IMG/VR virus record: IMGVR_UViG_2547132281_000011
Origin: a virus
Lineage: Duplodnaviria > Heunggongvirae > Uroviricota > Caudoviricetes
DNA length: 29,115 nucleotides
Direction: 5' to 3' (one strand)
Shown here: positions 1 through 26,894 of the stretch, piece by piece
How the letters are laid out: the number at the start of each line of letters is the position of its first letter
How positions within the stretch are numbered: position 1 is the stretch's first letter
Made by a program: the position numbers and the translations under genes
Notes under the pieces: generated by a model
Database searches by the model: none
The model's input: the letters and a program-made list of their open reading frames with translations, nothing else
Told to the model about the DNA's origin: nothing

Positions 1-573
1 TTACAACTTAGCTTGAGTTTGGAGTTCCTCTACAGGGTGATAACGATAAATCGTCGATATACCGATATCGTAAATAATTGCCAACTGTTTCCTGCTATAG
101 CCATTTTTGATCAGCCTTGCTATTTGTTCATGTTGCTCTTTTGTCAGTTTCGGACGGCGTCCGCCAATACGCCCCTGTGCACGTGCTGCCTCAAGTCCGG
201 CCAGTGTTCGTTCAACTATTAATTCGCGCTCCATTTCCGCTAAAGCCCCCATGACGTGAAAAAAGAAACGTCCCATGGGTGTTGACGTATCAATGCTGTC
301 TGTAAGACTACGGAAATTAACCCCTTTTCCCCGCAGTTCCTCAATAAGAGTGATAAGGTGTTTCATGCTTCTGCCCAGCCTATCCAGCTTCCAGACAACG
401 AGCGTATCTCCTTCTGATAACGTTCTGAGCAGCTTTTTCAATCCCGGTCGGGCTGACTTTGTTCCGCTGATTTTATCCTCAAAAATCAGTTCACATCCTG
501 CGCAGTTCAGTGCGTTTCGTTGTAAATCTGTATTCTGGTCATTTGTTGACACACGAATGTAGCCAATTTGCAT
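1..573 (-). CDS. gin: Serine-recombinase DNA invertase (Gin/Hin/Pin/Cin family), 190 aa
   Basis: N-terminal small serine recombinase motif GYIRVSTNDQ and C-terminal HTH in the translation; AGAGGA RBS before ATG at 573; sits beside an invertible tail-fibre segment as gin does in Mu. Confidence 0.9.
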   Translation of the reverse strand: MQIGYIRVSTNDQNTDLQRNALNCAGCELIFEDKISGTKSARPGLKKLLRTLSEGDTLVVWKLDRLGRSMKHLITLIEELRGKGVNFRSLTDSIDTSTPMGRFFFHVMGALAEMERELIVERTLAGLEAARAQGRIGGRRPKLTKEQHEQIARLIKNGYSRKQLAIIYDIGISTIYRYHPVEELQTQAKL

Positions 574-625
574 GAAAAATATCCTCTTTGTTTTGTTAAA
601 AATACATAGCTGGTATAGGTGGGAG

Positions 626-653
626 TTAAGACGAAAACGTTGGTTTGGGAGAA
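626..653. repeat. Invertase crossover site (gix/hix-like), gin-proximal copy
   Basis: TTAAGACGAAAACG-TT-GGTTTGGGAGAA; inner half-site plus flanking bases is an exact inverted copy of TTCTCCCAAACCAA at 2445-2458; lies between gin start and the segment, overlapping the likely gin promoter. Confidence 0.75.
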
Positions 654-1001
654 GCGGCGAAAAGGGATGTGGGTACAGGAGAAAATCAGATACCGGATAT
701 GTCAGCCTGGAAAAGAAATCCGAGTTCTAATCGCTGGAGAAAATTGCCTGATGGAACCATCATTCAAATGGGAATATCAGCATCAGGGCCATTAGGCTCA
801 CCTGTAAATATCACCCTGCCGATATCTTTCAGCAATACCAATTATTGTGTTGTTGCATCGTACGATAATGCACGGTCAGGTGTGTCAACAATGGTTAGTT
901 TTGCAGCATTACCTGTTTCACCATCGCAATTTTCCCTGATGTCATCTGTGACTGAGCAAGGAATAAATCCTTTTGCTTACTGGATTGCTTTTGGAGATTG
1001 A
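642..1001 (+). CDS. Alternative tail-fibre variable C-terminal domain (S'v-like); no independent start, expressed only after inversion fuses it to the constant N-terminus
   Basis: Frame reads GLGEAAKRD... directly from the crossover core (ORF track start is a TTG at 645); same GLGE junction as residues FVKNLGLGEGS of the fibre gene at 2445-2470. Confidence 0.65.
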   Translation, partial: GLGEAAKRDVGTGENQIPDMSAWKRNPSSNRWRKLPDGTIIQMGISASGPLGSPVNITLPISFSNTNYCVVASYDNARSGVSTMVSFAALPVSPSQFSLMSSVTEQGINPFAYWIAFGD

Positions 1002-1004
1002 TAA

Positions 1005-1424
1005 ATGGACAGATACTTCTATTCACAAAAAGAAAATGGTTTTTTTACCGATTTAAATAAAGCACCTTCAGATGCTGTTGAGATAACCACGGATGAATGG
1101 CTATCACTACTGGATGGACAGGATAATGGCATGAAAATAGTCAGCAATCAGGAGGGATATCCGGTTTTGACAGAGCAACCACCTTTATCAAAAGAAAACC
1201 TTATTGCATTGGCAGAGTTGAAAAAAGGAAAACTTATTAATGAAGCCAACGAGCACATGAACAGCAGGCAATGGCCTGGTAAAGCGGCTATTGGTCGTCT
1301 GAAAGGTGAGGAACTGGCGCAATATAATTTGTGGCTGGATTATCTGGACGCACTGGAACTGGTTGATTCCTCCAGTGCGCCAGATATTGAATGGCCTACG
1401 CCTCCGGCAGTTCAGGCCAGATGA
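1005..1424 (+). CDS. Tail fibre assembly protein, alternative copy (U'-like)
   Basis: 139 aa; C-terminus LWLDYLDALELVDSSSAPDIEWPTPP parallels the C-terminus of the opposite-strand assembly protein (LNAVLDYIDAVTATDTSTAPDVIWPELP); ATG 1005 follows S'v stop. Confidence 0.7.
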   Translation: MDRYFYSQKENGFFTDLNKAPSDAVEITTDEWLSLLDGQDNGMKIVSNQEGYPVLTEQPPLSKENLIALAELKKGKLINEANEHMNSRQWPGKAAIGRLKGEELAQYNLWLDYLDALELVDSSSAPDIEWPTPPAVQAR

Positions 1425-1998
1425 CATCCGGCGCGGTGCTGGTATCTGTTGCCGTCACCGCGTCAATGTAATCCAGCACAGCGTTAAGTCGGGTGGTTTC
1501 TGCCTGCGTCAGCTTCCGTCCGGCCTGTAGTTTCAGTTGAATCAGACTAATGGAAGCCATTGCTGCATCAATAAGTGACTGGCGCAGTGCTTCTGCCGCG
1601 TCTACTGCGGCATTATGCTGTGCCTCAGTATCTGTCACCCATTTCTCACCATCCCATTTATCGTATGGCGTTAACGGGGCGATAGTGGTTGTATTATCAG
1701 GGTAATCACCCGGAGCTGTGATTTCTTTTGATTCTCCTGTTTCGGTGCTAAAGACGATTTCACCGCGATGGTCTGGCACATATTCCCATGAGTTAAAATC
1801 TGCAGATCGGCAGATTGCATAACCAGTTTTGTATGAGCCAGGAGCATCTAAACAGGAACATGCCGGAATGCCGACACCCACAGCAAGATATTCAGTTGAT
1901 GTGAAAATATATTCCCGTGTTTCACCATCATAGTTATAAACCGTAATATTTCCTGCCTGGGTGGCGATAAATTCGTTATTTAATACAGCGTAATCCAT
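1396..1998 (-). CDS. Tail fibre assembly protein (U-like), currently in expressed orientation
   Basis: 200 aa immediately downstream of the tail-fibre gene (TAATG overlap at 1998); conserved Tfa-type C-terminus; 3' end overlaps U' convergently by 29 bp. Confidence 0.75.
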   Translation of the reverse strand: MDYAVLNNEFIATQAGNITVYNYDGETREYIFTSTEYLAVGVGIPACSCLDAPGSYKTGYAICRSADFNSWEYVPDHRGEIVFSTETGESKEITAPGDYPDNTTTIAPLTPYDKWDGEKWVTDTEAQHNAAVDAAEALRQSLIDAAMASISLIQLKLQAGRKLTQAETTRLNAVLDYIDAVTATDTSTAPDVIWPELPEA

Positions 1999-2945
1999 TA
2001 TGCAGCCCTCACGATATAATTAAAGGCAATGTTTCGAGGACGGTTTTCGTTTGCAGTTGGAACAACTCTGGAAGCATCAAATGTTACTCGCTTTGCATAA
2101 CCACCTTTAATTGAATCAGATGAAGCATCTCCGATGACGCTGGTTGTAAAAACGCCAGAATCAGAAGGATAGGTATTAAACCTGACATCTACTAATGCAC
2201 CAATTATATTTCGAATGGCATCGCCCTGTGATGCAAGCAAGCTACGGTTAGTATCAATTCCTCTTCCGTCATCCCAGCCACGAATAAACTCACCACGTAA
2301 ATCAGGTAATTTATTTGTCGGGTAAGCCTTTGCCAGTTCCGGGTATTCTTCAGCAGAAAAAGCCGCACCATTGCATTTCAGCCAGCCTGTTGGCGGAGTG
2401 GCTGAAGGCCACGGAACAGGGACACCAACAGGTAATGCAGAGCCTTCTCCCAAACCAAGGTTTTTGACAAACAGCGCAGGATCAGGAATATCTGCGCCGT
2501 TCTGGTCTTTAGCCAGCTTTTCCGCCAGCTTGTTCAGTACCGTAGTCGCAAAGTTTGGATCATTACCGAGAGCGTCAGCCAGCTCTTTAAGCGTATCCAG
2601 TGTCTCAGGGGCGCTGCCTGCAAGCGCCGCAAGTGCTTTGGCCACAAACTCCGTCGTCGCCAGCTTTTTGCTGTTATCGCCATTTGCAGGTGTAGGTGCT
2701 GTTGGTGTGCCGGTGAATGCCGGACTGGCTTTCGGTGCATACTGGGCATGCGGGTCTGCTGCCGCGATGTGTTTCGCAAGGTCAGCCCCGCCTTTTTCAA
2801 CCTGTTGCTTCAGGTACAGCGTGCGGCTGGCCAGTTGTTTACCCTGACGGTTAGAAATTCCGTCAGGCCCGCCCAGAACGGGGTCAGAGACCTCAATCTG
2901 GTAGATGCCGTCTTCCCACTGTGGGGTTTCAGGTAGATTTGCCAT
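1998..2945 (-). CDS. Tail fibre protein (S-like): constant N-terminal part (2945 to ~2458) plus currently joined variable C-terminal part (~2457 to 1998)
   Basis: 315 aa, Ala/Gly/Pro-rich fibre-like N-terminus; crossover site lies inside the gene at codons FVKNLGLGE; followed by assembly-protein gene. Confidence 0.8.
   Translation of the reverse strand: MANLPETPQWEDGIYQIEVSDPVLGGPDGISNRQGKQLASRTLYLKQQVEKGGADLAKHIAAADPHAQYAPKASPAFTGTPTAPTPANGDNSKKLATTEFVAKALAALAGSAPETLDTLKELADALGNDPNFATTVLNKLAEKLAKDQNGADIPDPALFVKNLGLGEGSALPVGVPVPWPSATPPTGWLKCNGAAFSAEEYPELAKAYPTNKLPDLRGEFIRGWDDGRGIDTNRSLLASQGDAIRNIIGALVDVRFNTYPSDSGVFTTSVIGDASSDSIKGGYAKRVTFDASRVVPTANENRPRNIAFNYIVRAA
2445..2470. repeat. Invertase crossover site (gix/hix-like) inside the tail-fibre gene at the constant/variable junction
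   Basis: TTCTCCCAAACC-AA-GGTTTTTGACAA: two 12-bp imperfect inverted half-sites around a 2-bp core, the organisation of hix/gix sites; 14-nt inverted match to 640-653. Confidence 0.8.
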
Positions 2946-2947
2946 AA

Positions 2948-3526
2948 TTAACTGCTCCCGTGGTTGTAACTACCGTCATAACGGGTAGTACTGTTGTATC
3001 GAATGGCGACAGACTGATATTCCAGGCTTGCCAGATGGCAGCGAGCCGGAGCAAAGGCAGCGAGCGTCTGACGTAACAGCGCTGCCTGATCATTAGTGAT
3101 GGGCTGTTGAAGGATGACCCGATAGACTGCCCAGGCTTGTGCATCGCCATGGACGAAAAGTCCGTTGTAACTGTGTTTACCGTCGTAGCCGATCTGCCCC
3201 GTACCTTCTATCAGCTCTACTTCGCCAAAGCCAAAACGGCGGATAATTTCCCGGATTGACCACGGCGTTCCTTTATAGCGGTGTAGCTCGATAGCGGATT
3301 TGATAAGCATGCGGCGTACATCGTCCGATTCCGCCAGTTCCCAGCCATCGCCGAACAACGAGAACTGCTCGCCCAGCCATGGCAGCGCGGAACTGTCGAC
3401 GATATCGACGAGACAGACCATCAGTACGCTCAGGTCGATGTTATCCAGCCGTTCGGCCAGTCTTCCCAGCGTTTTGAGACTGATATCACCCTCAAGCGGT
3501 GGCGGTAGTCGTAGCGCCTCAGCCAT
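2948..3526 (-). CDS. Tail/baseplate protein of the P2 gpI / Mu gp48 family
   Basis: 192 aa; motif SALPWLGEQFSLFGDGWELAE...HRYKGTPWSIREIIRRFGFGEV resembles the conserved LPWLAW...HR.KGT core of phage tail protein I; directly upstream of the fibre gene. Confidence 0.65.
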   Translation of the reverse strand: MAEALRLPPPLEGDISLKTLGRLAERLDNIDLSVLMVCLVDIVDSSALPWLGEQFSLFGDGWELAESDDVRRMLIKSAIELHRYKGTPWSIREIIRRFGFGEVELIEGTGQIGYDGKHSYNGLFVHGDAQAWAVYRVILQQPITNDQAALLRQTLAAFAPARCHLASLEYQSVAIRYNSTTRYDGSYNHGSS

Positions 3527-3543
3527 CGGACACCCCTGTCACG

Positions 3544-3720
3544 TTAAGAGTGATTGCCGTACAGTTTGCCCATTCGTTTTAAGGCATTCTGGCGTTCCTG
3601 CAGACGGCGGGAGGTATCACCAAGGGAATCAAGGGCGCGTCGGGTGCCACTGACGGCTGAGCGGAAGCTGCTCCCGACAATGCCGCCAATAATGACGCCG
3701 ACTGAAAATTCACTGGCCAC
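3544..3720 (-). pseudogene. Possible 5' remnant of the tape-measure gene (58 codons from GTG 3720) left by an internal deletion
   Basis: Frame after the chaperone genes reads VASEFSVGVIIGGIVGSSFRSAVSGTRRALDSLGDTSRRLQERQNALKRMGKLYGNHS, compositionally like a tape-measure N-terminus; GAGGA upstream of GTG; stops 18 bp before the gpI-like gene. Confidence 0.3.
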
Positions 3721-3812
3721 GGTGGCTATCCTCTGAAAGCAAAAAAACGGAAGGGAAGTGTCTGAACCCCATGCAGAACAGCCGCGACTGGCGGCTGTTA
3801 AGTGATACGTTG

Positions 3813-4070
3813 TTACTGATTGTCGCCGAACTCGCTTTTGATTTGCTCTTCAGCCTGCTCCAGCCACATCTCCAGATCGTCAGTATCGAGGGCATCAATC
3901 TCCCCCGGCTGAAACCTGAACCATCTCGCCAGCAGGCCCTGCGCCTGCATCAGTGTTTTTGTCGCTCTTGCCCAGCCCAGTGATTTTCTGAAATCGTTTC
4001 TGCAGCTCCATATAGTCGGCAAGATCCATGTTATCGAGGTCTTCCGGGAGGATACCGGTGCTACGGGCAA
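3813..4070 (-). CDS. Overlapping alternate-frame ORF of the tail assembly chaperone (E'/GT-type extension reached by frameshift)
   Basis: Overlaps the last 176 nt of the chaperone gene and extends 82 nt past its stop; lies in the +1 (equivalently -2) frame relative to it. Confidence 0.5.
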   Translation of the reverse strand: MPVAPVSSRKTSITWILPTIWSCRNDFRKSLGWARATKTLMQAQGLLARWFRFQPGEIDALDTDDLEMWLEQAEEQIKSEFGDNQ

Positions 4071-4236
4071 TCAGTGGTTCGTCCCAGTCTGCCGGGTCTT
4101 TGTTGATTTTGCGCACCTGCTTCAGGTCTTTTACTGTCAGGCGTTTCAGTTCAATCTGTTCAATTCTGGTACCTGCAGCAGTGGTGAAAGGATAAGACAG
4201 CGTAAAAGTATCGGACTGGGTCTGTGACATGATCAT
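3895..4236 (-). CDS. Tail assembly chaperone (P2 gpE / lambda G-like)
   Basis: 113 aa, acidic C-terminal half, positioned after sheath and tube with an overlapping alternate-frame ORF. Confidence 0.6.
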   Translation of the reverse strand: MIMSQTQSDTFTLSYPFTTAAGTRIEQIELKRLTVKDLKQVRKINKDPADWDEPLIARSTGILPEDLDNMDLADYMELQKRFQKITGLGKSDKNTDAGAGPAGEMVQVSAGGD

Positions 4237-4291
4237 ACTCCTTTGTAAATTCAGAGCAGTATGTCTGGCGGTGGACGTGACGGATATTAAA

Positions 4292-4320
4292 GGAGATTAA
4301 GAAGAAGGGGCCGGAGCCCC
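4292..4320 (-). terminator. Putative intrinsic terminator after the sheath-tube transcription unit
   Basis: GC hairpin GGGGC-tccg-GCCCC (minus-strand sense, plus-strand 4307-4320) followed on the minus strand by TTCTTCTTAATCTCC. Confidence 0.4.
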
Positions 4321-4327
4321 TGTGATG

Positions 4328-4609
4328 TCAGCAAGTGCGAAAACCCTTGCAGTTACGCAGGAAAGCGATGAGAAGCGCCTTTCCCTCAGATTTGCCGATG
4401 CCGGAGAACCAGTGGTCGGGCGGCTCCCATGCTTCAATCAAATCGGCCAGTTTGCGGGCCTTTGAACGTGTGCAGTCAATCGGGTCATTGGTTTTACGGG
4501 TATTAAAAAGGGTTTCCACCCCCGGAATATCAAGGAGGGTAAACCACGTACCATTTGACATGCCCAGTGACGCACATCGCCCTCCTTTGTCAGTCAGTTC
4601 AACACTCAC
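4328..4609 (-). CDS. Hypothetical protein downstream of the tube gene
   Basis: 93-aa ORF starting 3 nt after tube stop; no recognisable motif. Confidence 0.4.
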   Translation of the reverse strand: MSVELTDKGGRCASLGMSNGTWFTLLDIPGVETLFNTRKTNDPIDCTRSKARKLADLIEAWEPPDHWFSGIGKSEGKALLIAFLRNCKGFRTC

Positions 4610-4611
4610 CG

Positions 4612-5133
4612 TCAGCCCCCGATATTGATCCGATAGTCAGTCAGTTGATCAACGCCACCGACGCGGAAGATGTTGGCCAGATAGTCCAGTTGCAGCAACT
4701 CTTCACCATCCAGTACCTGTCTGATATACGTGCAGGTGAAGCTACTGGAGAACTCGGCGTTCTCGTGCTGTTTAAACGTCCCCAGCGGGTTCTTCTTGAA
4801 CATAATTGTCAGGAAGGTGACCAGCGGGATTTCGTCGATCAGCCCCTGCGAGCTGTAGCGCTGGACGCTGGAGCGACACTGCAGCGCCAGCGACTTGTAC
4901 GGGTTCGCGGCAGACAGCATCGCATCGCGGTAAAAGCTGTTCCATTTGATTTCGCCTTCCAGTTTGTCAAAACCAGCCGGGAGTTCCACCTTACCCACCA
5001 TCCCCAGTGCCTTGTGTTCCTGCATAATCATGGAGACATCGGGGAGTTTAACCTCCTCAGCCCGTCCCAGCAGGTTAGTACCATCCAGATAGATGTTGGC
5101 ATTCGTGATTCGGTTTATCTCAATCTTTGACAT
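4612..5133 (-). CDS. Tail tube protein
   Basis: 173 aa directly after sheath (1-nt overlap); size and position as P2 FII / Mu M. Confidence 0.7.
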   Translation of the reverse strand: MSKIEINRITNANIYLDGTNLLGRAEEVKLPDVSMIMQEHKALGMVGKVELPAGFDKLEGEIKWNSFYRDAMLSAANPYKSLALQCRSSVQRYSSQGLIDEIPLVTFLTIMFKKNPLGTFKQHENAEFSSSFTCTYIRQVLDGEELLQLDYLANIFRVGGVDQLTDYRINIGG

Positions 5134-6560
5134 CAGTTGCCCCCTTTCAGGGTTAACAGGTATTCCGAGGTGATCTCAGTCTCAAACGTCAGTCGCTCCA
5201 GCGGCGGTGGTGGCGTATATTTGTAGCTCAGCAACAGGTGCCCGGCGGCCAGCTCCGTTTCCGGATTGCGGGCCGGATCAAACCAGCAACGGAAGCCCAG
5301 TACCGCGCCATCACCAGTCATTTTGCGACCGTAGGCGTTGACCGACTCCGTCAGTGCATCAATCAGCGCCTGAGTAATCGGCATGTCGATGTACTGCTGG
5401 CTGAAGTAACGAATGGACTCATTGATCACATCACCGGTGCGGCGAACGTTCTCAAAGTTACGCATATGGGTGACCGTTGGCCATGCTGCCGTCCGGTTAC
5501 CCCACAGACGAAGGCCGCTGCCGTAACTGCTGAATACCGTGGTGATCCCCTGTTCGTTAAGCAGGTTCACCTCGCTCTGCGGATCGTCAATCATTGCCGA
5601 CAGCTGGCGCTCCACGCCGGTGATCCCCAGAATTTCCTGATTTGAGGATGACCACCAGTACCCTTTGTCCAGGTCGACTTTGGCACGCAGGCCCGCCGCA
5701 CGCTGGCTCAGTGGCTCCAGACGTTCCGTGTTCGTCACCGGGTCATATACCTTCACATGCGGGTAGCACAGGCGGACACGGTCAGAGCTGGTATTAAAGT
5801 TAATGGTGCCTTCCGGGCCTCGTCCCGCCAGAGCCTGCGCAAAAGTGGTACCAACCGGCGCATCAATATAGGTTACTGCTCCCAGTTTCTCAGCCATGGC
5901 GATAAGCTCAACCGAGACGCTGTTCTGGGTGCAGAATACCGGAGCAATCAGGATTTTGGCGAAGTAGCCAAACAGGTTAAAACTGTCGTTAAGCAGCTTC
6001 ATGCCGGTACGGTTGCCTGCAGCGTTAACGGTACCGATGATATCAGCCGGGGTGACTTTGGTCGGATCAGCATAGTTATAGCTGGCCTTCACCGTTGCAT
6101 CTGCAGCAATGCTTTTACCCAGGTTAGTAATCACCCCGGTCTGTGCATCAAGCGAGTAGTCCTGACCTTCAACATAAGGCTGACCGTCGCTGTCCGGTTT
6201 CAGTACCAGCTGCGCGACCACCGGATTAGCCAGCCGGGCTCTGCCTGTCGCCTTGTCGAACGACACATTCTCACTGACCACAGCGGTTTTATGCACAGAC
6301 GGATCGAGTACGTTAATGACCAGAACGGTGCCTGCACCATGGTCATAAATCGCATCCAGCGCCTGTGGAATGGTAAAGCCGGTGAACTGGCTGCCAAATG
6401 CCGCAGCGTCTTTCTCAGACAGGCACTGTACCAGCGTATTGACATCCCCCATTGGTGCGGTACCAATCAGGCCAATAACGGCAGATTTCACCGTTTTAAC
6501 CGGGCGGGCACCGTTTTCCACTTCAATGGTTTCCGGACCATGCAGATAGTTAGCTGACAT
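5133..6560 (-). CDS. Contractile tail sheath protein
   Basis: 475 aa, N-terminus MSANYLHGPETIEVENGARPVKTVKSAVIGLIGTA resembles the Mu L sheath N-terminus as recalled; followed by tube gene. Confidence 0.8.
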   Translation of the reverse strand: MSANYLHGPETIEVENGARPVKTVKSAVIGLIGTAPMGDVNTLVQCLSEKDAAAFGSQFTGFTIPQALDAIYDHGAGTVLVINVLDPSVHKTAVVSENVSFDKATGRARLANPVVAQLVLKPDSDGQPYVEGQDYSLDAQTGVITNLGKSIAADATVKASYNYADPTKVTPADIIGTVNAAGNRTGMKLLNDSFNLFGYFAKILIAPVFCTQNSVSVELIAMAEKLGAVTYIDAPVGTTFAQALAGRGPEGTINFNTSSDRVRLCYPHVKVYDPVTNTERLEPLSQRAAGLRAKVDLDKGYWWSSSNQEILGITGVERQLSAMIDDPQSEVNLLNEQGITTVFSSYGSGLRLWGNRTAAWPTVTHMRNFENVRRTGDVINESIRYFSQQYIDMPITQALIDALTESVNAYGRKMTGDGAVLGFRCWFDPARNPETELAAGHLLLSYKYTPPPPLERLTFETEITSEYLLTLKGGN

Positions 6561-6804
6561 GGGCGTCCTCCGTTTTCACCTCGCTGTCACCGCCGTTCCT
6601 GCGCTTTGGTGACTGCACAGCCGGTGTGCCGGCGGGTTTAATTTCTTCAGATACCGGCGTCAGATGCTTCAGCGCCACCAGTACCTTCACGTAGTCATGC
6701 TCCTCCGGCAGGGAAACAGTCTTCCCCGGCCAGAGCAGGATTTCGGTTCCGTCCGACAGCGTGACGCCGCTGGCCGGGCCGGAATAGCGGTATTCTTTCA
6801 TCAC
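6550..6804 (-). CDS. Small protein at the Mu gp38 position (head-tail region)
   Basis: 84 aa, overlaps sheath start by 11 nt; assigned by synteny only. Confidence 0.5.
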   Translation of the reverse strand: MMKEYRYSGPASGVTLSDGTEILLWPGKTVSLPEEHDYVKVLVALKHLTPVSEEIKPAGTPAVQSPKRRNGGDSEVKTEDAHVS

Positions 6805-7265
6805 TCGCTTTCCTCATAGTTCACTTCAGTTAACAGCGGGCCGGACGGTAAATCGCTGTCTTCGATAAAGACGCTTTCAGTCGCGAAGTCGAGGGCGTAC
6901 TGCCACAGCCCCCTGACTTCACCGATAAACACCTCGCGGGTCAGCCAGATACGGCGGCGGCACCCGGGCGGGGTGTAGCCACCAAGAATGCGGCGGACAG
7001 CATCCAGGACATTAATCGCCCCTTTTTTACCGTTGAGCTGTCGGAAGACCACCGTGACGCAGAGCTGGATAGTCTGAGGCTGGATCACCGCACCGGTATC
7101 ATCCGGCCTGTCGAAACGCGATCCTGCATAGCTCAGCAGCAACGCCCCGACAGAATGATTGAGGCGGTATTCGGACGGCTTTTCCGGGAAGTACTCAACC
7201 TGCAGCTGAGGCAGCTTCTCGCGCAACCGGGCCAGCACCGCATCAAGGACGGGCAGAACATTCAT
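6801..7265 (-). CDS. Mu gp37-like head-tail protein
   Basis: 154 aa, ATGA-coupled to neighbours; assigned by synteny. Confidence 0.5.
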   Translation of the reverse strand: MNVLPVLDAVLARLREKLPQLQVEYFPEKPSEYRLNHSVGALLLSYAGSRFDRPDDTGAVIQPQTIQLCVTVVFRQLNGKKGAINVLDAVRRILGGYTPPGCRRRIWLTREVFIGEVRGLWQYALDFATESVFIEDSDLPSGPLLTEVNYEESE

Positions 7266-7711
7266 CAGTATTTCTCCAGTAAGCCGTCACGACCGCCGAA
7301 AGTGGCCGGGCGGCTGCGTACACGAAACTCTCCTGGCTCAGGCATATCTTTCTGAGTGGACGGCAGCCCCAGCGTAAGCCTGTTATCACGTAACTCCTTC
7401 AGTTGCCGCAGCGCTTCTTTGTGGTCATCCTTCACCGTATCCGGGAGGTCACCTTCCGGGCGGCGGGCGTAGAGCCGGTAACGGACCAGCGTGATGGCAA
7501 TGTCCCGCAGAACGGTCGGTATCTCCGCCAGCGGCAGGATATAGCGTCCGCGCAGATGGGCATCAATCAGCTCGTCGGCATAGCGGATACAGCTCTCCAC
7601 CACACGGGTATTCACTGTCGCAGGCGAGTCGAAGTCCATCTCTTCACTGGTGAGCTCGATCAGCGTTCGTTCCGGCACCTGCTCAAGCAAATCCTCCAGG
7701 GTGCAGTACAT
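7265..7711 (-). CDS. Mu gp36-like head-tail connector protein
   Basis: 148 aa from ATG at 7711 (MYCTLEDLL...); the ORF-track upstream extension overlaps the preceding gene; assigned by synteny. Confidence 0.5.
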   Translation of the reverse strand: MYCTLEDLLEQVPERTLIELTSEEMDFDSPATVNTRVVESCIRYADELIDAHLRGRYILPLAEIPTVLRDIAITLVRYRLYARRPEGDLPDTVKDDHKEALRQLKELRDNRLTLGLPSTQKDMPEPGEFRVRSRPATFGGRDGLLEKY

Positions 7712-7712
7712 G

Positions 7713-8051
7713 TCACACCCCGCGCAGGATACGAATGACGTCGCCTTCACCCCCGGCTTCATCAAGTGCAATACCACAGGATTTACCGTCGCCGGACTGC
7801 GGCACGGCTCTGGCCTGAGCATCTGACTGAACAGCCACACCACGGCTGACCGCAGCACCGGCCTCAACAGCAATAATGCCCAGAACGCTCACCGGCGTGC
7901 TGTCGCCGGTAACAGCATCCACTTCGGCAACCCCGAGCGCTGCGGCACCGGCTTTACAGGGGGTATTATCTGCCCCGACAAAACGCTGCTGTGCCAGTTC
8001 TGCCCCTGCCGTTACGGTTGTAATCAGAATGACCTGCTGAGTGGTTCCCAT
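7713..8051 (-). CDS. Hypothetical small head protein
   Basis: 112-aa Ala/Gly/Val-rich ORF directly after the major capsid gene. Confidence 0.4.
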   Translation of the reverse strand: MGTTQQVILITTVTAGAELAQQRFVGADNTPCKAGAAALGVAEVDAVTGDSTPVSVLGIIAVEAGAAVSRGVAVQSDAQARAVPQSGDGKSCGIALDEAGGEGDVIRILRGV

Positions 8052-9028: not shown

Positions 9029-10144
9029 TTACAGGCAGCGTGCGACAGCAGCCTCATAGCTGATGCCTTCTTTTTTGGACAGGGCCACTGCTTTCTGATG
9101 CAGGGCCAGACGCTCAGGATCGGCTTCCGCAAACTCCGCCACATCCACCTTCACCGTGTCGCCGACACGCTCCTTTGTGGCCTGTTCGGCGAAATTCATC
9201 ACCGGCTCCCCGTCGGAGAGCAATGAACGGAAGGCGGTGGCCAGCGGCGTGCGGCTTTCCCCCTCAGCAAACTCCACCGGCTTGTCGCCACCGGCGACGG
9301 CATCCAGCAGGGCAACCACCACGGAGGAGGCGCGGGGAGCCAGACGCCCCTCTGCGACCAGTTTTTCTGCAAAGGCCACATTGTCCTTATGCAGTTGCTC
9401 CTGTCTGGCCTGTGCATCACGCGCATCGCGATCAGCAGCCTGCTGCTTCAGGCGGCGGTTCTCCTCCTGAAGGGCTTCAATCTCTTCTTTTGTCATCGAT
9501 GATTCCTCGTTACTTGCGGAAGACGGCACCTGGCCTGTCTCACTGAATTGTGCACCTGCTGCATCCTGCGACGGTGTGTCGCGGTACGCCTCTTCGCGCA
9601 GATTGTTGAGCTGCCATTCCGGCAGGACTTTTTCTGCTTCGTCCAGACTGAAGCGGGCGATCAGAAAATCGCGCAGCTTTCCCCACAGGGAGGCATTCGT
9701 GATGGCCTGCCAGTCGGCGAACTCCACCACACCTTCTTCCTGCTCACTGAAGGACACCTGTTTCAGCCCCTTGACGGAAGGTGGCTGTGCCCCGAGAAAG
9801 CCCACATGGCGCAGGTAGAGCACGCCGGGCTTCGGATTGGACGGTGAATCCGGGAGGTAGAAAGAGGCGGACACTTTTTTGAATCGTCCGTCGGTGACCA
9901 TCTCAGCAAACTGCGGGTCCAACTGGGCAGGCTCTGCCATCAGATCGACGCCGCTGAGCGACAGGGCTTTCACCCAGCCCCACGCCGGGTCTTCCGTTCT
10001 GGGATGACCAATCACGAGTGGTGCTTCATGGACGGACGGGTCATAGGCTTTCACGCAGGCGGCAAGATCGTCTGGCGTGAACGGCAGTTTTTTGCCGTGC
10101 ATATCGGTATGAGTACCGGCTTTAAAAATGTGAATGGCTGACAT
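9029..10144 (-). CDS. Head maturation protease / scaffold (Mu I-like)
   Basis: 371 aa; C-terminal half is charged and coiled-coil-like (EEIEALQEENRRLKQQAADRDARDAQARQEQLHKD), as in scaffold domains; precedes capsid gene. Confidence 0.75.
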   Translation of the reverse strand: MSAIHIFKAGTHTDMHGKKLPFTPDDLAACVKAYDPSVHEAPLVIGHPRTEDPAWGWVKALSLSGVDLMAEPAQLDPQFAEMVTDGRFKKVSASFYLPDSPSNPKPGVLYLRHVGFLGAQPPSVKGLKQVSFSEQEEGVVEFADWQAITNASLWGKLRDFLIARFSLDEAEKVLPEWQLNNLREEAYRDTPSQDAAGAQFSETGQVPSSASNEESSMTKEEIEALQEENRRLKQQAADRDARDAQARQEQLHKDNVAFAEKLVAEGRLAPRASSVVVALLDAVAGGDKPVEFAEGESRTPLATAFRSLLSDGEPVMNFAEQATKERVGDTVKVDVAEFAEADPERLALHQKAVALSKKEGISYEAAVARCL

Positions 10145-17731: not shown

Positions 17732-18055
17732 ATGACTGAACCGAAACAGTCTGGTATTAAAAAAGGGTTCCTCTTTGGGAGCAGAATCGGAGAGCAGAAT
17801 AAAACTTACACGCTAAGCTTGGATGCATGTTGTCCAACCGAAGCGATTATAGAGCTGAAAAACGTTCTGGTTGCACTTGAAGAGAGAAGAAGTCATTTCG
17901 CCAGCGGAGAAAACAATGTCATGCTAATTGGCGATGTGGCGGCGACATCACGATATAAAACCGCACCTAATCCTGCGATTCAGTTATCCTTCGACCAACG
18001 AATACTGGAAGCGGAATCAGCAGTTCCCAGAACGGTTCGTCCTCACCAGTCTTAA
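17732..18055 (+). CDS. Hypothetical protein
   Basis: 107 aa from ATG 17732 behind GGGGAGG; 3' end overlaps the convergent ORF 17967-18542 by 89 nt, so one of the two may be spurious. Confidence 0.35.
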   Translation: MTEPKQSGIKKGFLFGSRIGEQNKTYTLSLDACCPTEAIIELKNVLVALEERRSHFASGENNVMLIGDVAATSRYKTAPNPAIQLSFDQRILEAESAVPRTVRPHQS

Positions 18056-18542
18056 CTGGGGCTGCTTCACCCGACCAGTAAAGCCAAGCACGGTGATACA
18101 GTTCCAGCACCGGGCAATCACTGTTCAATAACCTCATATCTCCGCGATGCACCTGCTCATTTGTGATGACTTCATATATCGGTGCCGTTCTTATTTCGTC
18201 TTCGCCTCTCTCATCAGCCAGTAATTCCCTGAACTTCCTGACTTCACTCAGATGCTGACAGGCAAACAGTGACTGATAGCGGGAAGGTTTATCAGGAAAA
18301 TGGCTACGGCGAACTAACTCAAACACCAGACCGACCAGCAGACTTCTGCTGATTCCACTGTCATCTTCCATTTTAGGGCCGGGGTTATAGAGATAGTTAT
18401 ACCCGTGACTCGAAAGGCCATTGGGATACATCTGATGAAGAAAAGCGGCCAGTTCTGGCATTTCAGGCTCGTATTTTCCGGTAATTACATGACAAGGCGA
18501 AGGCAGACGACTAGCGGAATCAAGTGTGTAATACGTTCCCAT
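17967..18542 (-). CDS. Hypothetical protein, 191 aa
   Basis: Long ORF with AAGGA upstream; no motif I can recognise. Confidence 0.45.
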   Translation of the reverse strand: MGTYYTLDSASRLPSPCHVITGKYEPEMPELAAFLHQMYPNGLSSHGYNYLYNPGPKMEDDSGISRSLLVGLVFELVRRSHFPDKPSRYQSLFACQHLSEVRKFRELLADERGEDEIRTAPIYEVITNEQVHRGDMRLLNSDCPVLELYHRAWLYWSGEAAPVKTGEDEPFWELLIPLPVFVGRRITESQD

Positions 18543-18657
18543 TCAGAAAACAATCCTTATCGAACAAACACTGCACGTAGGTAATACATCCAGTAAATCG
18601 CGTTAATAGAAATCATGTATCTCAAAACTTCACTCTGAACTCTGACAGTGAAAGAAC

Positions 18658-18689
18658 GACCAGCCCGGTACCCGAACTCCGGGCTGGTC
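18658..18689 (-). terminator. Strong hairpin, putative terminator of the repressor-linked operon
   Basis: Perfect 11-bp stem GACCAGCCCGG / CCGGGCTGGTC with 10-nt loop; on the minus strand followed by GTTCTTTCACTG. Confidence 0.4.
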
Positions 18690-18951
18690 ATCGCCCCACA
18701 GGAATGCACTGTGAGCCGACCGAGGTTCAGTCAGTCTCGCGAGACCAGACTAGCCTGCCATATTTTTTATAATTATAAAAGGGTTACAGATTATGAAAAT
18801 GCAGACATTCCCCATCGCTCCATGGATTGGTTGTAAACGCCGCCATGCCAGACATATTCTGGCCGATGTTTCCTAGCACGCACGAATATGAGGCAACTGA
18901 CGAGAATAAATGATGCGTCAGAATGAACCGTCGACACCGTGCTTTCAGGTT

Positions 18952-19563
18952 TCAAAAATCTGGAGAAGGTATATCTATCTGACCGACGTTTCGTAACCAC
19001 ATCTCTTGCTTTGTTTCTTTATTGGTTCGGGCGATATCATTAGCATTGTATCTGCATGTTTTAACCGCAACCTCACGAACTCGTGCTATAGGAGTATTTG
19101 TGTAGAATTTAAGATCTTCCTCTACCGCTCGTATGGCGATAAGCCCTCCACTCTGAAAACCGCTGGTTACTTTTAAAAGATCAACTCCTTGGTTATAAAC
19201 GGCATTACATACGTTAGGGAACTCATCTTCTACAGTTTTGGGGATCATCAGCATATCAGGAAGACCCTGTAACACGTTATCTTCCTTTGGCCTCCATGCC
19301 CTTCCCAAAAAAGCTGTTATAGGTTGTGGTGTAGAAAGAAATGCCAATTCTATATAAAACAAACCACTGTAGTGATCGCGTAACGAATAGACTAGTAAAT
19401 GATCTTTTCCAGTTTTACTTGCATTGCTAAGTTTTATATCAAATGGTTTTTTCTGGTACTTAAGCAATCCATCAACTCCCGCATAATAATGCTTTGAAAC
19501 AGCAACAGAAAGTTGATGTACTTGGTTCGGATAATCTGTTCTATATCGTTTAATTAGCCCCAT
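18952..19563 (-). CDS. Hypothetical 203-aa protein, second gene of repressor-linked accessory operon
   Basis: ATG 19563 with GAGG 6-7 nt upstream, 20 nt after the upstream gene; AT-rich; no recognisable motif. Confidence 0.6.
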   Translation of the reverse strand: MGLIKRYRTDYPNQVHQLSVAVSKHYYAGVDGLLKYQKKPFDIKLSNASKTGKDHLLVYSLRDHYSGLFYIELAFLSTPQPITAFLGRAWRPKEDNVLQGLPDMLMIPKTVEDEFPNVCNAVYNQGVDLLKVTSGFQSGGLIAIRAVEEDLKFYTNTPIARVREVAVKTCRYNANDIARTNKETKQEMWLRNVGQIDIPSPDF

Positions 19564-19583
19564 AATAGCCTCGCAGTTATTTT

Positions 19584-20570
19584 CTATTTCAAAATATAAC
19601 GATATTTACTATCTGGAGTGTTTTGTTGGTCAAGTAATAGAGCTCTACATGGGGCGGTCAAAACACGGGCATAACGACCATCGGGGTTTATGTTGATGTA
19701 ACAAGTTTTCCCTTTAACACCATAAGATTCAGGTATTATTGCCTGTGTAGACACCGTGAATTTAAGGGTATGCCAGCCCGATTTTTGCTTGTAGCTTGAA
19801 ACCGAATGGAAATCATCTGAGTACTTATTTAACCCTGGAAACATGCTGCGTAATGCTGGGATGGAATCTTCTATTATTTTGTCGTTGGTTTTAATGTTAA
19901 AAACGCTGGTTTCAGTAGATGCTACTGCTTTAGCATTTCCCCATTTACCAGCGAACACAATCATTCCCACGAAAAATATTGCGACAAGAACTAACGCTCC
20001 CCCCAACACTACTACATGAGGCTTCCGGCTTCTGGTTGGTACAGTCGCGACTGATTTTGCCCCGCTGTCCGATGGAGGTGATAGAGTTTTACTCTCATCA
20101 CGAATATTCAGCAGATCATCAAAATAACCAAACACAGCCTGCAACTGCTCTTTGTCCAGGCCTTTAAGATGGGTTGTACCGAAATGCTTCAGACAGTATC
20201 TGTCACGGTCAAGACGATACCTAGGGTCAGTAAGCACCATTATTTTGCTGACCAGAAGATTACAGTCCTTCATATTCTGGATCTGTTGTGCATATCTCTG
20301 GAGGATCTCAACCGCACCATGATAATCAGCCGCAGTCATTTCATTAACTGTTTTGGTATTAAGTTTCGTGTGGATCGTCATCCATAGTTCGCGCTTACTT
20401 TCCCCCAGATCAACCAATTCATCCATCAATCTGTGTAAATCGCGTTTTTGCAGCAACGAAATTGGTTGCTGGGCAGAGGGAAGTATGTCAGCAGAATAGT
20501 TATGAATGGTAACATCACCGCTGACAACGTTACCCACATCTCCGTTAACTGTTTGCTTCTCTTTACTCAT
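19584..20570 (-). CDS. Single-pass membrane protein (cytoplasmic ~190-aa N-domain, one TM, ~115-aa C-domain), translationally coupled to repressor gene
   Basis: TM segment VVVLGGALVLVAIFFVGMIVFAG; start ATG overlaps repressor stop (ATGA at 20567-20570); N-terminus NGDVGNVVSGDVTIH echoes the repressor C-terminus. Confidence 0.65.
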   Translation of the reverse strand: MSKEKQTVNGDVGNVVSGDVTIHNYSADILPSAQQPISLLQKRDLHRLMDELVDLGESKRELWMTIHTKLNTKTVNEMTAADYHGAVEILQRYAQQIQNMKDCNLLVSKIMVLTDPRYRLDRDRYCLKHFGTTHLKGLDKEQLQAVFGYFDDLLNIRDESKTLSPPSDSGAKSVATVPTRSRKPHVVVLGGALVLVAIFFVGMIVFAGKWGNAKAVASTETSVFNIKTNDKIIEDSIPALRSMFPGLNKYSDDFHSVSSYKQKSGWHTLKFTVSTQAIIPESYGVKGKTCYININPDGRYARVLTAPCRALLLDQQNTPDSKYRYILK

Positions 20571-21078: not shown

Positions 21079-21267
21079 ATGACTTCCGAACAAGTTAAAA
21101 CTCTCTTCCGTCAGCGTGGTATCACGTTTACCCGCTGGGCCGAAGAACACGGCTACAGCCGCAATGAGGTCTATCGTGTTCTCAATGGACAGACCAAAGC
21201 TCGTTACGGCAAAGCCCATGAAATTGCCGTAAAGCTGGGATTAAAACCCACGTCAAATGCGGCATAA
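21079..21267 (+). CDS. Small Ner/Cro-like DNA-binding protein, first gene of early operon
   Basis: 62 aa, AAGGAG RBS, HTH-like FTRWAEEHGYSRNEVYRVLNG; position as Mu ner. Confidence 0.55.
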   Translation: MTSEQVKTLFRQRGITFTRWAEEHGYSRNEVYRVLNGQTKARYGKAHEIAVKLGLKPTSNAA

Positions 21268-21319
21268 ATTTTCCATATATGCAACAGGTTATCACATATT
21301 GCAAAAATGGAAATGTGAC

Positions 21320-21628
21320 ATGAGTAAAGTAAATATCTCCAGTTCCGGGACCCGCATCCTACGTGTACTCAAAGCTCTACGCGGTCACTCTCTGAACGGT
21401 GTTTCTAACGGTGAACTGGCATCAGCCCTAGATGAGTCCCCGGCGAACATCAATCGAGCACTCAATACCCTTATCGAAGAGGGACTAGCCCTGAAACTGG
21501 AAAACGGGCGTTTCGCACCAGGCATCCAGTTGCTGCAGATCGCCATGGCCCACAGTAACGAGATGGCACGTGCACAGGATCGCATTAACGAAATCAACCA
21601 ACGTGTTATTTCAGGTAGTCGTTTGTAA
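21320..21628 (+). CDS. Winged-helix-like DNA-binding protein
   Basis: 102 aa from ATG 21320; TRILRVLKALRGHSLNGVSNGELASALDESPANINRALNTLIEEGL resembles wHTH regulators; start uncertain. Confidence 0.45.
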   Translation: MSKVNISSSGTRILRVLKALRGHSLNGVSNGELASALDESPANINRALNTLIEEGLALKLENGRFAPGIQLLQIAMAHSNEMARAQDRINEINQRVISGSRL

Positions 21629-21638
21629 GGAGTAATCA

Positions 21639-22550
21639 ATGGGACGCACCAAATCACCGGTTAGCACTGAACTGAACGTCGAGGTACCGCTGTCGGATGA
21701 TCTCAATGTCAGTCTAAACGCCATGACACAGCATCGCATGGAAATCATGCAACAGTTCGGCGATGGTCTGCCCTATGAGCGCGATCGTGTTGTCCATGAG
21801 GCACGCTTTTATATGGCACAGAGCGCTGAGGCCATGCTGGAGGCAGGTAAGCGGCTGATAATCCTTAAGGAAAATGAACCACACGGGGAGTTTATAAAGA
21901 TTCTTGAAAGTGAGTTGGGGCTGGCATACCGGACATCTGTGAGAATGATGCAAGCATCGACAAAATACTTATCCCCGGCGCTGAAACCAAATGTGCCAAC
22001 GTTGGCACATTTGGGAAAAGCCAAACTTTTCGAATTAATGACAGAAGACGACGAAGAGCTTGCCGAACTGGCCGACGGCGGCACAGTTGCCGGCATGACG
22101 CTTGACGATGTTGATCGCATGTCAGTACGTGAATTGCGTCAGGCCCTGCGTGAAGCGCGCGAAACCAACGCAGCACAACAGCGTGTTCTCGCCGATAAAA
22201 ATGAAAAAATAGACTCACTCTCCACCAGACTGGAGAAGAAATCCCGTATTCAGCCACCTGAGCCTGATGAAGAGGTGAAGAAACTGCGGGCGGAAGTGAC
22301 CGCGTTAGCGGTTGAGGCGGAATCTGCCATCGCCGTTCGACTGTCCAGCGCTTTTGAGACACTGTGCGCATATTGTGCTGAAAACATGATTGATACCCCC
22401 AGAGACTTCATGGCAGGCCTGGTCTGTCAACTGGAAAGCACAGCGCGTAGCCTGCGCTCCACATTTGACCTGCCGGACGAGCCAACAGGCGATGTCGCGC
22501 CTTCATGGCTGACTGAGCCGACGCCACAGATTAACGGGCTGGAGGCATAA
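21639..22550 (+). CDS. Hypothetical early protein, 303 aa (possibly DUF3102-like), with coiled-coil C-terminal half
   Basis: Strong AAGGAG RBS; charged helical region (RELRQALREARETNAAQQRVLADKNEKIDSL); not present at this position in Mu itself. Confidence 0.55.
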   Translation: MGRTKSPVSTELNVEVPLSDDLNVSLNAMTQHRMEIMQQFGDGLPYERDRVVHEARFYMAQSAEAMLEAGKRLIILKENEPHGEFIKILESELGLAYRTSVRMMQASTKYLSPALKPNVPTLAHLGKAKLFELMTEDDEELAELADGGTVAGMTLDDVDRMSVRELRQALREARETNAAQQRVLADKNEKIDSLSTRLEKKSRIQPPEPDEEVKKLRAEVTALAVEAESAIAVRLSSAFETLCAYCAENMIDTPRDFMAGLVCQLESTARSLRSTFDLPDEPTGDVAPSWLTEPTPQINGLEA

Positions 22551-22553
22551 CCA

Positions 22554-24323: not shown

Positions 24324-24333
24324 GGAGGGAAAC

Positions 24334-25500: not shown

Positions 25501-25502
25501 TA

Positions 25503-25766
25503 ATGAAATCCACCACAGGTATCAACCAGCAAATCAGCAAAGTGCAGTCAGCCATTATGGCGCTTAAGGCGACGAACACGGATGTACAAAGCATCACCAT
25601 CAGGGGTAACAAACCTGTCATCCGCGTTTCCCGGAGTGCGCATTGCATGCGCATGCTTGAGCAGGGAAAGGCCTGTTATACCGGACATGACCACAGGGGA
25701 TATTTCCGTCAGGGCGTTTTCGAACTGCACGGCTGTCGCGTCGTGTGGCCGGAATCTTTGTGGTAA
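25503..25766 (+). CDS. Hypothetical early protein (Kil position)
   Basis: 87 aa directly after the ATPase gene; function not recognisable. Confidence 0.45.
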   Translation: MKSTTGINQQISKVQSAIMALKATNTDVQSITIRGNKPVIRVSRSAHCMRMLEQGKACYTGHDHRGYFRQGVFELHGCRVVWPESLW

Positions 25767-25793
25767 TCAGCACAACTGGAGAAATCATAAGAT

Positions 25794-26324: not shown

Positions 26325-26421
26325 ACACACCACGTTAATTATTTAATAAAAACATTTTCTTTTTTATTCCGGCGTCAGCGCCGTGGGCTTCTGCACGCCG
26401 GAAACAGAGGAGAATTAAATT

Positions 26422-26616
26422 ATGATATTTAAATGTATTCAGTGCGAGAGGGATATAACAGCCCTGCGTTTTCACAGCGCCATCGCCGTGATGTCCGGTA
26501 AGTACCACGTACCTGCAGTACGTGTCACCCTGGTCTGTCCGTACTGCAGCCAGCATTTTTCGGCGGACGTGCCCGTCATGGAATTCTTCCGCCCTGACAG
26601 GGAGGACGCGCAATGA
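26422..26616 (+). CDS. Small zinc-ribbon protein
   Basis: 64 aa with CxxC ... CPYC pairs; GAGGAG RBS. Confidence 0.45.
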   Translation: MIFKCIQCERDITALRFHSAIAVMSGKYHVPAVRVTLVCPYCSQHFSADVPVMEFFRPDREDAQ

Positions 26617-26885: not shown

Positions 26886-26894
26886 GGGCGCGAC

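What the first reader, a model, noticed from the sequence alone, without database searches (positions are those of the whole stretch)
3527..3894. Tail module lacks tape-measure and baseplate genes: probable large internal deletion
Only about 370 bp separate the tail chaperone ORFs from the P2 gpI / Mu gp48-like gene. A contractile tail requires a tape-measure protein and baseplate hub/wedge proteins (Mu Y, N, P, Q, V, W; roughly 7-8 kb) at exactly this position. The remaining open frame encodes only a 58-codon tape-measure-like N-terminus. The late arm therefore appears unable to build a tail, although the fibre switch and head genes look intact.
Basis: partly seen in the sequence, partly recalled or inferred. 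Interest (0 to 1): 0.55.

Follow-up and report, generated by a model that had tools for sequence, protein, structure and literature searches.

The report
Tail-gene deletion in a Mu-like prophage
A BcepMu-type transposable prophage of an enterotoxigenic E. coli lineage has lost its tape-measure and baseplate genes in one clean deletion of 7.5-10 kb, which makes it an ordinary defective prophage that should be unable to build tails.

Summary
The window is a BcepMu-like transposable prophage with a P2-type tail module on the minus strand. It runs from the invertase stop to the Mor stop.

- **What is missing.** In every intact relative examined, the genes T-U-X-D-V-(accessory)-W-J (6.5-7.5 kb) lie between chaperone E/E' and gpI. 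Here they are absent.
- **The junction.** It lies at window 3579/3580. It joins codon 47 of the tape-measure gene, out of frame, to the last ~20 codons of gpJ, and gives the 58-codon ORF at 3544-3720. The only homology at the junction is TT.
- **Size.** Relative to the nearest complete genome (E. coli ATCC 43896, >99.9% identical on both flanks), 10,188 bp are gone, including a 2.7-kb ISCro1.
- **Not an artefact.** The exact fusion ORF occurs on four contigs, including the draft genome of ETEC TW14425, a second assembly and a 4.94-Mb chromosome.
- **Arose in place.** Sister strains with the same insertion in agaD still carry J, W and upstream DNA.
- **Not relocated.** No T, U, X, D, V, W or J homologue lies elsewhere in the window.
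- **Rare.** None of 5,426 complete E. coli genomes has the junction.

This is recent prophage decay in one lineage. It is correct but ordinary, and of low interest.

The parts
3579..3580 (.). Deletion junction, with TT as the only shared bases between the two parental sequences
   Evidence: Base-by-base comparison with ATCC 43896. Window 1-3580 equals L005 6001-9580, and window 3579-29115 equals L005 19767-45309.
3544..3720 (-). 58-codon fusion ORF: tape-measure codons 1-47 (3580-3720, GTG start) followed by 11 out-of-frame codons read from the 3' end of gpJ
   Evidence: Translation. tblastn of the ATCC 43896 tape-measure protein. Same 90% cluster as 821-aa tape-measure proteins, accession WP_157909038.1. 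No Pfam or NCBIfam domain.
3519..3580 (-). Remnant of baseplate gene J: its last ~20 codons and stop, overlapping the gpI start by 8 nt as in intact relatives
   Evidence: tblastn places J residues 349-366 at window 3578-3525 with 100% identity. J and I overlap in L005 at 9519-9526.
2948..3526 (-). gpI (P2 I / BcepMu gp51), the only baseplate wedge gene retained
   Evidence: PF09684, E=1.5e-24. TIGR01634.
3721..3812 (-). Native spacer between E' and the tape-measure gene, with a 9-bp stem-loop (3777-3785 / 3791-3799)
   Evidence: Read from the sequence and folded. Window 3579-8000 is 99.955% identical to the 503025 prophage, so the spacer is not a product of the deletion.
3813..3950 (-). E' reading frame (frameshift extension of chaperone E)
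   Evidence: Called as a 45-aa gene in L007. Annotated 'GpE family phage tail protein' in RefSeq relatives. My own HMM scans gave no hit.
3895..4236 (-). Tail assembly chaperone E, intact but without its tape-measure client
   Evidence: PF10109, E=1.5e-22.
4612..6560 (-). Tail tube (4612-5133) and sheath (5133-6560), both intact
   Evidence: PF04985, PF04984 and PF17482.
1..2945 (-). Fibre module: fibre H 1998-2945, Tfa 1396-1998, alternative fibre tip and Tfa on the + strand (645-1424), invertase 1-573, and 26-bp crossover sites at 629-654 and 2445-2470
   Evidence: Pfam. Inverted repeat I1.

Best explanation
The window is a BcepMu-type transposable prophage with a Mu-style life cycle and a P2-style tail. 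It is inserted in agaD of an ETEC lineage that includes strain TW14425.

After it integrated there, one illegitimate recombination event with only 2 bp (TT) of microhomology removed everything from codon 48 of the tape-measure gene T to about 60 nt before the end of baseplate gene J. The lost genes are T, U, X, D (hub), V (spike), a DpnII/MboI-like accessory gene, W and J. The ISCro1 found inside that interval in the closest relatives was probably lost as well.

What remains is a 58-codon out-of-frame T'-'J fusion ORF with no expected function. The element still encodes a repressor, transposase and B-like ATPase, Gam, GemA, Mor, a lysis cassette, terminase, portal, head proteins, sheath, tube, E/E', gpI, fibres and the fibre invertase.

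On induction it should therefore still transpose, fill heads and lyse the cell. It should not nucleate a baseplate or tail, and so should release non-infectious tailless heads. It is a recently formed defective prophage.

Shown here: the deletion, its endpoints, its inheritance, its origin in place and the absence of the genes elsewhere in the element. Inferred: a single-step mechanism and the tailless phenotype.
For: **Deletion and endpoints.**
- The endpoints are mapped to the base, and 10,188 bp are missing relative to ATCC 43896. The flanks are 99.97% and 99.96% identical to that genome.
- In relatives without an insertion sequence the same interval is 6.5 kb (KP12, A33).
- It is about 7.5 kb with the accessory gene. 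ISCro1 plus its target duplication is 2,707 bp.
- BcepMu has gp44-50 (T-U-X-D-V-W-J) between the chaperones and gp51.
- Only J residues 349-366 and tape-measure residues 1-47 survive in the window.

**Real and inherited.**
- The fusion ORF is encoded on 4 contigs. They include AELE01000007.1 (TW14425), NJYM01000022.1 and a 4.94-Mb chromosome.
- The window is identical, or differs by one mismatch, over 12.6-13.7 kb of these contigs.

**Origin in place.**
- L017 and L018 share the same prophage/agaD junction and 8 kb of host flank, at 99.97-99.99% identity. They still carry J, W and upstream DNA.

**Transposable-phage identity.**
- The transposase is 68.5% identical to that of BcepMu.
- The ends are TG...CA, with 6-bp target duplications at two different sites.
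- The other insertion sites seen are ppiD/ybaV, yicL and rcsC/yfaP.

**Remaining genes.** They are intact by Pfam.
Against: - No experiment shows the phenotype.
- A second related prophage in the same genome could supply tails in trans. I could not search the whole source genome.
- The single-step mechanism is an inference. Sister strains show ISCro1-adjacent rearrangements in the same interval, so an IS-provoked or multi-step route is possible.
- The ancestor's exact content, with or without the IS, is not known, so the deleted length is 7.5-10.2 kb.
Confidence: 0.9

Rival explanations
1. Assembly artefact: the tail genes exist in the real genome but were collapsed or dropped during assembly or prophage extraction.
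For: No complete RefSeq E. coli genome (0 of 5,426) and no viral, metagenome or species-representative contig contains the junction.
Against: The exact junction ORF is present in at least three separately produced assemblies, including a 434-kb draft contig from TW14425, a 73-kb contig of another assembly and a 4.94-Mb chromosome. The endpoints share only 2 bp, and no repeat lies nearby that could cause a collapse.
Confidence: 0.02
2. IS-driven deletion: the ISCro1 (IS66 family) sitting between V and W in the ancestor caused the loss. This could have happened through transposase-induced breaks or successive adjacent deletions, followed by loss of the IS itself.
For: The interval is an IS hotspot: IS2, IS100, ISCro1 and ISEc43 are found there in different strains. 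In sister strains at the same agaD site, the ISCro1 ends abut different phage positions (L015 7394 in L017; the inverted IS end at 7933 in L018). This shows ongoing IS-adjacent rearrangement.
Against: No IS sequence or IS end remains at the junction. Both sides are pure J and tape-measure gene sequence. Classic IS-adjacent deletions keep the IS, so removing it needs an extra event.
Confidence: 0.15
3. Deletion by the element's own serine invertase acting on quasi-crossover sites, since the 2-bp overlap matches the 2-bp staggered cut of Gin/Hin/Cin-type enzymes.
For: The junction overlap is TT. The genuine crossover sites (629-654 and 2445-2470) have a central AA/TT dinucleotide.
Against: The 26-mers centred on the two endpoints match the real sites at only 7/26 and 9/26 positions. 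This is no better than the background for the prophage, which has a mean of 8.5. From general knowledge, these invertases strongly favour inversion over deletion.
Confidence: 0.03
4. A functional tail-less derivative: the element persists and spreads as a head-only mobile element that borrows tails from a co-resident BcepMu-like or P2-like prophage, analogous to capsid-forming PICIs.
For: Head, packaging, lysis and transposition genes are all intact. Related prophages are common: 638 of 5,426 complete genomes match, so helpers are plausible.
Against: - The element keeps sheath, tube, chaperones, gpI and fibres, so it is not streamlined.
- It is more than 99.9% identical to undeleted copies, so the loss is recent.
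- All deletion-bearing contigs whose flank is visible share one chromosomal site. That fits vertical inheritance, and nothing indicates spread.
- The breakpoints cut two genes out of frame.
Confidence: 0.04

Closest known systems
Burkholderia phage BcepMu and phiE255 (Bcepmuvirus); E. coli/Klebsiella relatives PhiKM and the KP12_2 clone
   Same: - The transposase is of the same Tn552/IS1604-related rve type, 68.5-69.4% identical.
- The ends are TG...CA.
- Early and late gene clusters are divergent.
- The lysis cassette is followed by Mu-like head genes and a P2-like tail module in the same order (PMC2771037).
   Different: - The window lacks the equivalents of BcepMu gp44 (all but 47 codons) to gp50 (all but ~20 codons).
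- It has a fibre invertase and an invertible segment, which BcepMu lacks (PMC2771037).
- Its total length is 29,356 bp, against 36,748 bp for BcepMu.
Prophage of E. coli ATCC 43896 (NZ_CP024278.1, 1150359-1189908 approx.) and sister copies in agaD (GCA_001912305.1, GCA_049978725.1)
   Same: More than 99.9% nucleotide identity over all 29.1 kb of the window. The agaD copies share the same insertion site and target duplication.
   Different: They retain T-U-X-D-V-accessory gene-W-J, with ISCro1 inserted. The window has a 10,188-bp gap at that position.
Classical defective (cryptic) prophages formed by internal deletion, such as E. coli K-12 Rac, DLP12, Qin and e14 (general knowledge)
   Same: Loss of essential virion genes by deletion while other phage genes remain.
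   Different: Those are old and heavily eroded. This one has a single recent lesion, and every other gene is intact.
Capsid-forming PICIs and other tail-pirating satellites (general knowledge)
   Same: They encode capsid and packaging functions but not a complete tail.
   Different: Satellites are small, lack all tail genes by design and have their own integrase and replication modules. This is a full-size transposable phage with a random-looking break inside two tail genes.

Membership tests
BcepMu-like transposable phages | Transposase of the Tn552/IS1604-related rve type, homologous to the BcepMu transposase and not to MuA (PMC2771037) | tested here: met
   Window 22554-24323 has PF00665. 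It is 68.5% identical over 98% of its length to the BcepMu transposase and 69.4% identical to that of phiE255.
BcepMu-like transposable phages | TG...CA termini, and insertion at varied chromosomal sites with a short target duplication | tested here: met
   The ends are TGATGCG... and ...CTAATCA, lying 78 bp and 163 bp outside the window. The 6-bp duplications are GGTAAA (agaD) and TCTGCC (ATCC 43896). Other sites are ppiD/ybaV and yicL.
BcepMu-like transposable phages | Two divergent clusters: early genes on one strand, and lysis, head and tail genes on the other | tested here: met
   Minus-strand late genes run from 1 to about 21028 and plus-strand early genes from 21257 to 29115.
BcepMu-like transposable phages | Complete P2-type tail cassette FI-FII-E/E'-T-U-X-D-V-W-J-I-H | tested here: not met
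   T (after codon 47), U, X, D, V, W and J (except its last ~20 codons) are absent from the window. The order of the remaining genes is conserved.
BcepMu-like transposable phages | Replicative transposition, with virion DNA carrying random host DNA at both ends | not testable with these tools
   Requires sequencing of packaged DNA.
Defective prophage | Loss of at least one essential virion gene relative to intact close relatives | tested here: met
   The essentiality of P2 T, U, D, V, W and J comes from established P2/Mu genetics (general knowledge).
Defective prophage | No infectious particles on induction | not testable with these tools
   Needs induction, electron microscopy and plaque assay.
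Tape-measure protein (P2 gpT, PF10145) | Long helical protein carrying the PhageMin_Tail domain | tested here: not met
   The 58-aa ORF has no Pfam or NCBIfam hit. It keeps only residues 1-47 of an 821-aa protein.
Capsid-forming PICI / tail-pirating satellite | Small island with capsid genes, no tail genes at all and satellite-type integration and replication genes | tested here: not met
   Sheath, tube, E, gpI, fibres and a Mu-type transposition module are present. The element is 29.4 kb long.

The most novel reading that the evidence does not exclude
The shortened element may be more than debris. Its genome is 7.5-10 kb short of a headful, so each head it fills would carry that much extra adjacent host DNA, here the aga/yra region. 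If a co-resident related prophage supplies tails, the lineage would own a transposable, tail-pirating, high-frequency transducing element.
Probability: 0.03. Interest if true: 0.5.

Novelty: new member of a known kind. Interest (0 to 1): 0.1.

Why it matters
The biological importance is small.

- It is a cleanly documented example of the first step of prophage decay. There is one lesion, and undeleted sister copies sit at the same chromosomal site.
- Prophage predictors would wrongly call this element 'intact'.
- Any phage induced from TW14425-lineage ETEC should not be expected to come from this locus.

No open question is addressed.

Tried and rejected
- **Junction searches.** An exact 37-nt junction sequence found nothing in viral contigs, genome contigs or metagenome contigs. 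Megablast of the junction against 5,426 complete E. coli genomes gave no spanning hit. The source was found only through an exact look-up of the fusion ORF.
- **Relocated genes.** tblastn of all eight deleted proteins against the window gave nothing beyond the two remnants.
- **Invertase quasi-site hypothesis.** Rejected, because the endpoints score at background level.
- **Homology between endpoint neighbourhoods.** Only chance words of 8 nt or fewer were found.
- **Confirmation of E'.** Pfam and NCBIfam scans gave no hits, and no X XXY YYZ slippery heptamer lies inside E. The status of E' therefore rests on gene calls and annotation in relatives.
- **Spacer between E' and the tape-measure gene.** The fold contains one hairpin, but the overall energy is not unusual, with z = -0.65. 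The terminator scan found nothing there.
- **Other scans.** Rfam and tRNA scans of the whole window were empty. PADLOC on the accessory ORFs was empty.
- **TW10573.** Its match starts exactly at window 3579, which looked suspicious. It simply has three IS insertions that push the two halves too far apart to be joined.

Full report
**What the window is.** Almost all genes from 1 to about 21,000 are on the minus strand, apart from the invertible fibre segment at 645-1424. Pfam assigns them as follows:
- a serine invertase (1-573);
- an invertible fibre-tip/Tfa segment, Tfa (1396-1998), fibre H (1998-2945) and gpI (2948-3526);
- chaperone E (3895-4236), a DUF7739 ORF, tube (4612-5133) and sheath (5133-6560);
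- Gp37, Mu gp36, a cement protein, major capsid protein, protease/scaffold, Mu G, Mu F, Mu portal and both terminase subunits;
- a lysis cassette (holin, SLT endolysin, spanin-sized ORFs), three accessory ORFs and an HTH repressor.

From 21,257 the plus strand carries DNA-binding proteins, an rve transposase, an AAA+ B-like protein, Gam, GemA and Mor. This is the BcepMu layout described in PMC2771037. The transposase is 68.5% identical to that of BcepMu over 98% of its length.

**Checking the observation.** The stretch 3527-3894 is indeed all that separates chaperone E from gpI. It holds:
- the end of the E' frame (3813-3894);
- a 92-bp spacer;
- a 58-codon ORF (3544-3720, GTG start);
- a 17-bp spacer.

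In every relative I examined, the genes T, U, X, D, V, W and J lie at this position. These relatives are Klebsiella KP12_2, Escherichia PhiKM, the E. coli strains A33, 503025, ATCC 43896, TW10573 and B7A, and BcepMu itself.

**Mapping the deletion.** The closest complete genome is E. coli ATCC 43896.
- Window 1-3580 equals L005 6001-9580, with 1 mismatch.
- Window 3579-29115 equals L005 19767-45309, with 5 mismatches and one 6-bp indel.
- The two alignments overlap by only the dinucleotide TT at 3579-3580.
- The missing 10,188 bp contain most of J, then W, a DpnII/MboI-like accessory gene interrupted by ISCro1, then V, D, X, U and all of T after codon 47.
- ISCro1 plus its 8-bp duplication accounts for 2,707 bp, so about 7.5 kb of phage DNA was lost. 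In relatives without the accessory gene the interval is 6.5 kb.
- The fusion is out of frame. The ORF reads 47 tape-measure codons and then 11 unrelated codons before a stop, 17 nt upstream of the gpI ATG.
- tblastn of the eight deleted proteins against the whole window found only these two remnants, so the genes have not moved elsewhere in the element.

**Real or artefact.** No complete RefSeq E. coli genome spans the junction (0 of 5,426; 638 match at least one half of the junction query). No viral, metagenomic or species-representative contig contains it either. An exact look-up of the 58-aa product changed the picture.
- The product is encoded on four contigs.
- One is AELE01000007.1, from ETEC strain TW14425, Guinea-Bissau 1996 (PMC4309559).
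- Another is NJYM01000022.1.
- It also appears as WNT88682.1 / WP_157909038.1 on a 4.94-Mb chromosome.
- The window matches these contigs with 0 or 1 mismatch over 12.6-13.7 kb, straight across the junction.

Independent assemblies agree and no repeat lies at the endpoints. This rules out a collapsed assembly.

**Where and when it happened.**
- The prophage ends lie just outside the window: TG... 78 bp to the left and ...CA 163 bp to the right.
- The element sits inside agaD with a 6-bp target duplication, GGTAAA.
- The ATCC 43896 copy sits elsewhere with the duplication TCTGCC. B7A and TW10573 have it at ppiD/ybaV and A33 next to yicL. This is the signature of transposition.
- Two other assemblies (L017, L018) have the same prophage/agaD junction and the same 8 kb of host flank at 99.97-99.99% identity. 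Both still carry J, W and the accessory gene upstream of gpI.

The deletion therefore arose in place, after integration, in one sublineage. The element is now 29,356 bp long, against 36,748 bp for BcepMu.

**Mechanism of the deletion (inferred).**
- The endpoints share only TT. There is no flanking homology beyond chance 8-mers, and no IS end remains. The simplest reading is one illegitimate, microhomology-level joining event.
- I tested whether the element's own invertase might have used quasi-sites, because its true crossover sites (629-654 and 2445-2470) have a central AA/TT. The endpoints match those sites at 7/26 and 9/26 positions, against a background mean of 8.5. I rejected this idea.
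- An IS-provoked route remains possible. The interval is an IS hotspot, and the agaD-site sister strains show ISCro1 ends abutting different phage positions. However, IS-adjacent deletions keep the IS, and none remains here.

**Consequence (inferred from established P2 and Mu genetics, not tested).**
- The lost proteins are the tape measure, the hub (D), the spike (V), the gp25-like (W) and gp6-like (J) wedge proteins, and U and X.
- Without a hub and tape measure there is no platform on which tube and sheath can polymerise. The intact sheath, tube, E/E', gpI and fibre genes therefore cannot produce a tail.
- Everything needed for derepression, transposition, packaging and lysis looks intact. 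Induction should still kill the cell and release tailless heads, unless another prophage in the same genome supplies tails. I could not check that.
- Because packaging in this group is by headful, the shortened genome would be packaged together with more adjacent host DNA.

**Comparison and verdict.**
- The element meets the defining features of BcepMu-like transposable phages: transposase type, TG...CA ends with target duplication at varied sites, and divergent gene clusters. The exception is the complete P2-type tail cassette, and that gap is the finding itself.
- It differs from BcepMu in having a fibre inversion system (PMC2771037).
- It does not resemble a tail-pirating satellite. It is full size, it keeps half of its tail genes, and the breakpoints cut two genes out of frame.
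- Another strain (L016) carries a different large internal deletion of the same phage, so such decay is commonplace in this family.

The feature is an ordinary, recent, lineage-restricted defective prophage, and interest is low.

Noticed in passing
window 1-2470 (crossover sites 629-654 and 2445-2470; invertase 1-573): This is a Gin/Hin-type fibre switch. 26-bp inverted crossover sites (TTCTCCCAAACCAAGGTTTTTGACAA) flank a 1.8-kb segment that holds an alternative fibre tip (645-1001) and Tfa (1005-1424). BcepMu itself has no inversion system. Strain A33 carries a multi-cassette version with several alternative tips.
   Followed up: partly
outside the window: L005 11032-14600, L003 2678-6848, L006 10241-16960, L016 7039-7914: In relatives, a DpnII/MboI-like (PF18742, also annotated PD-(D/E)XK) accessory gene sits between baseplate genes V and W. 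It is intact (291 aa) only in L016. Elsewhere it is hit by IS2, IS100, ISCro1 or ISEc43, so it is a marked IS hotspot inside the tail operon.
   Followed up: partly
L016 (GCA_049980705.1, JAAPMY010000061.1) 2085-4810: This is an independent, different large deletion of the same phage in another strain. The early region (equivalent to window 29115-26426) is joined directly to the 3' part of gene U. That removes the transposase, repressor, lysis, head, sheath, tube, E and T genes but keeps the baseplate and fibres.
   Followed up: partly
just outside the window: 78 bp left of position 1 and 163 bp right of position 29115 (L014, L010): The prophage termini are TG...CA with a 6-bp target duplication, GGTAAA, and the insertion splits the host gene agaD. 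The window was cut at the CDS boundaries (invertase stop, Mor stop) and so lacks the transposon ends.
   Followed up: yes
window 25676 (in ORF 25503-25766, +): There is a 6-bp in-frame deletion relative to ATCC 43896 and B7A in a small early gene of unknown function (87 aa against 89 aa). The 87-aa form is present on 23 contigs, most of them at the agaD site.
   Followed up: partly
window 3777-3799 (minus strand, between the E' stop and the tape-measure start): A perfect 9-bp stem with a 5-nt loop (AACAGCCGC/GCGGCTGTT) is followed about 30 nt later by T7G. It lies in a stretch (3579-8000) that is 99.955% identical to the 503025 prophage. It is not a canonical terminator, and the fold energy of the spacer is not unusual.
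   Followed up: partly
window 17967-20570 (minus strand): Three accessory ORFs lie between the lysis cassette and the repressor: a DUF2441 protein (191 aa), a 203-aa ORF and a 328-aa ORF with a weak Flk_N hit. They have no PADLOC match and their function is unknown.
   Followed up: partly
L017 1-684 and L018 1-77 (sister strains with the agaD insertion): The ISCro1 ends abut different phage positions than in ATCC 43896: L015 coordinate 7394 in L017, and the inverted IS end at 7933 in L018. This indicates IS-adjacent deletion or inversion events in the same tail interval.
   Followed up: partly
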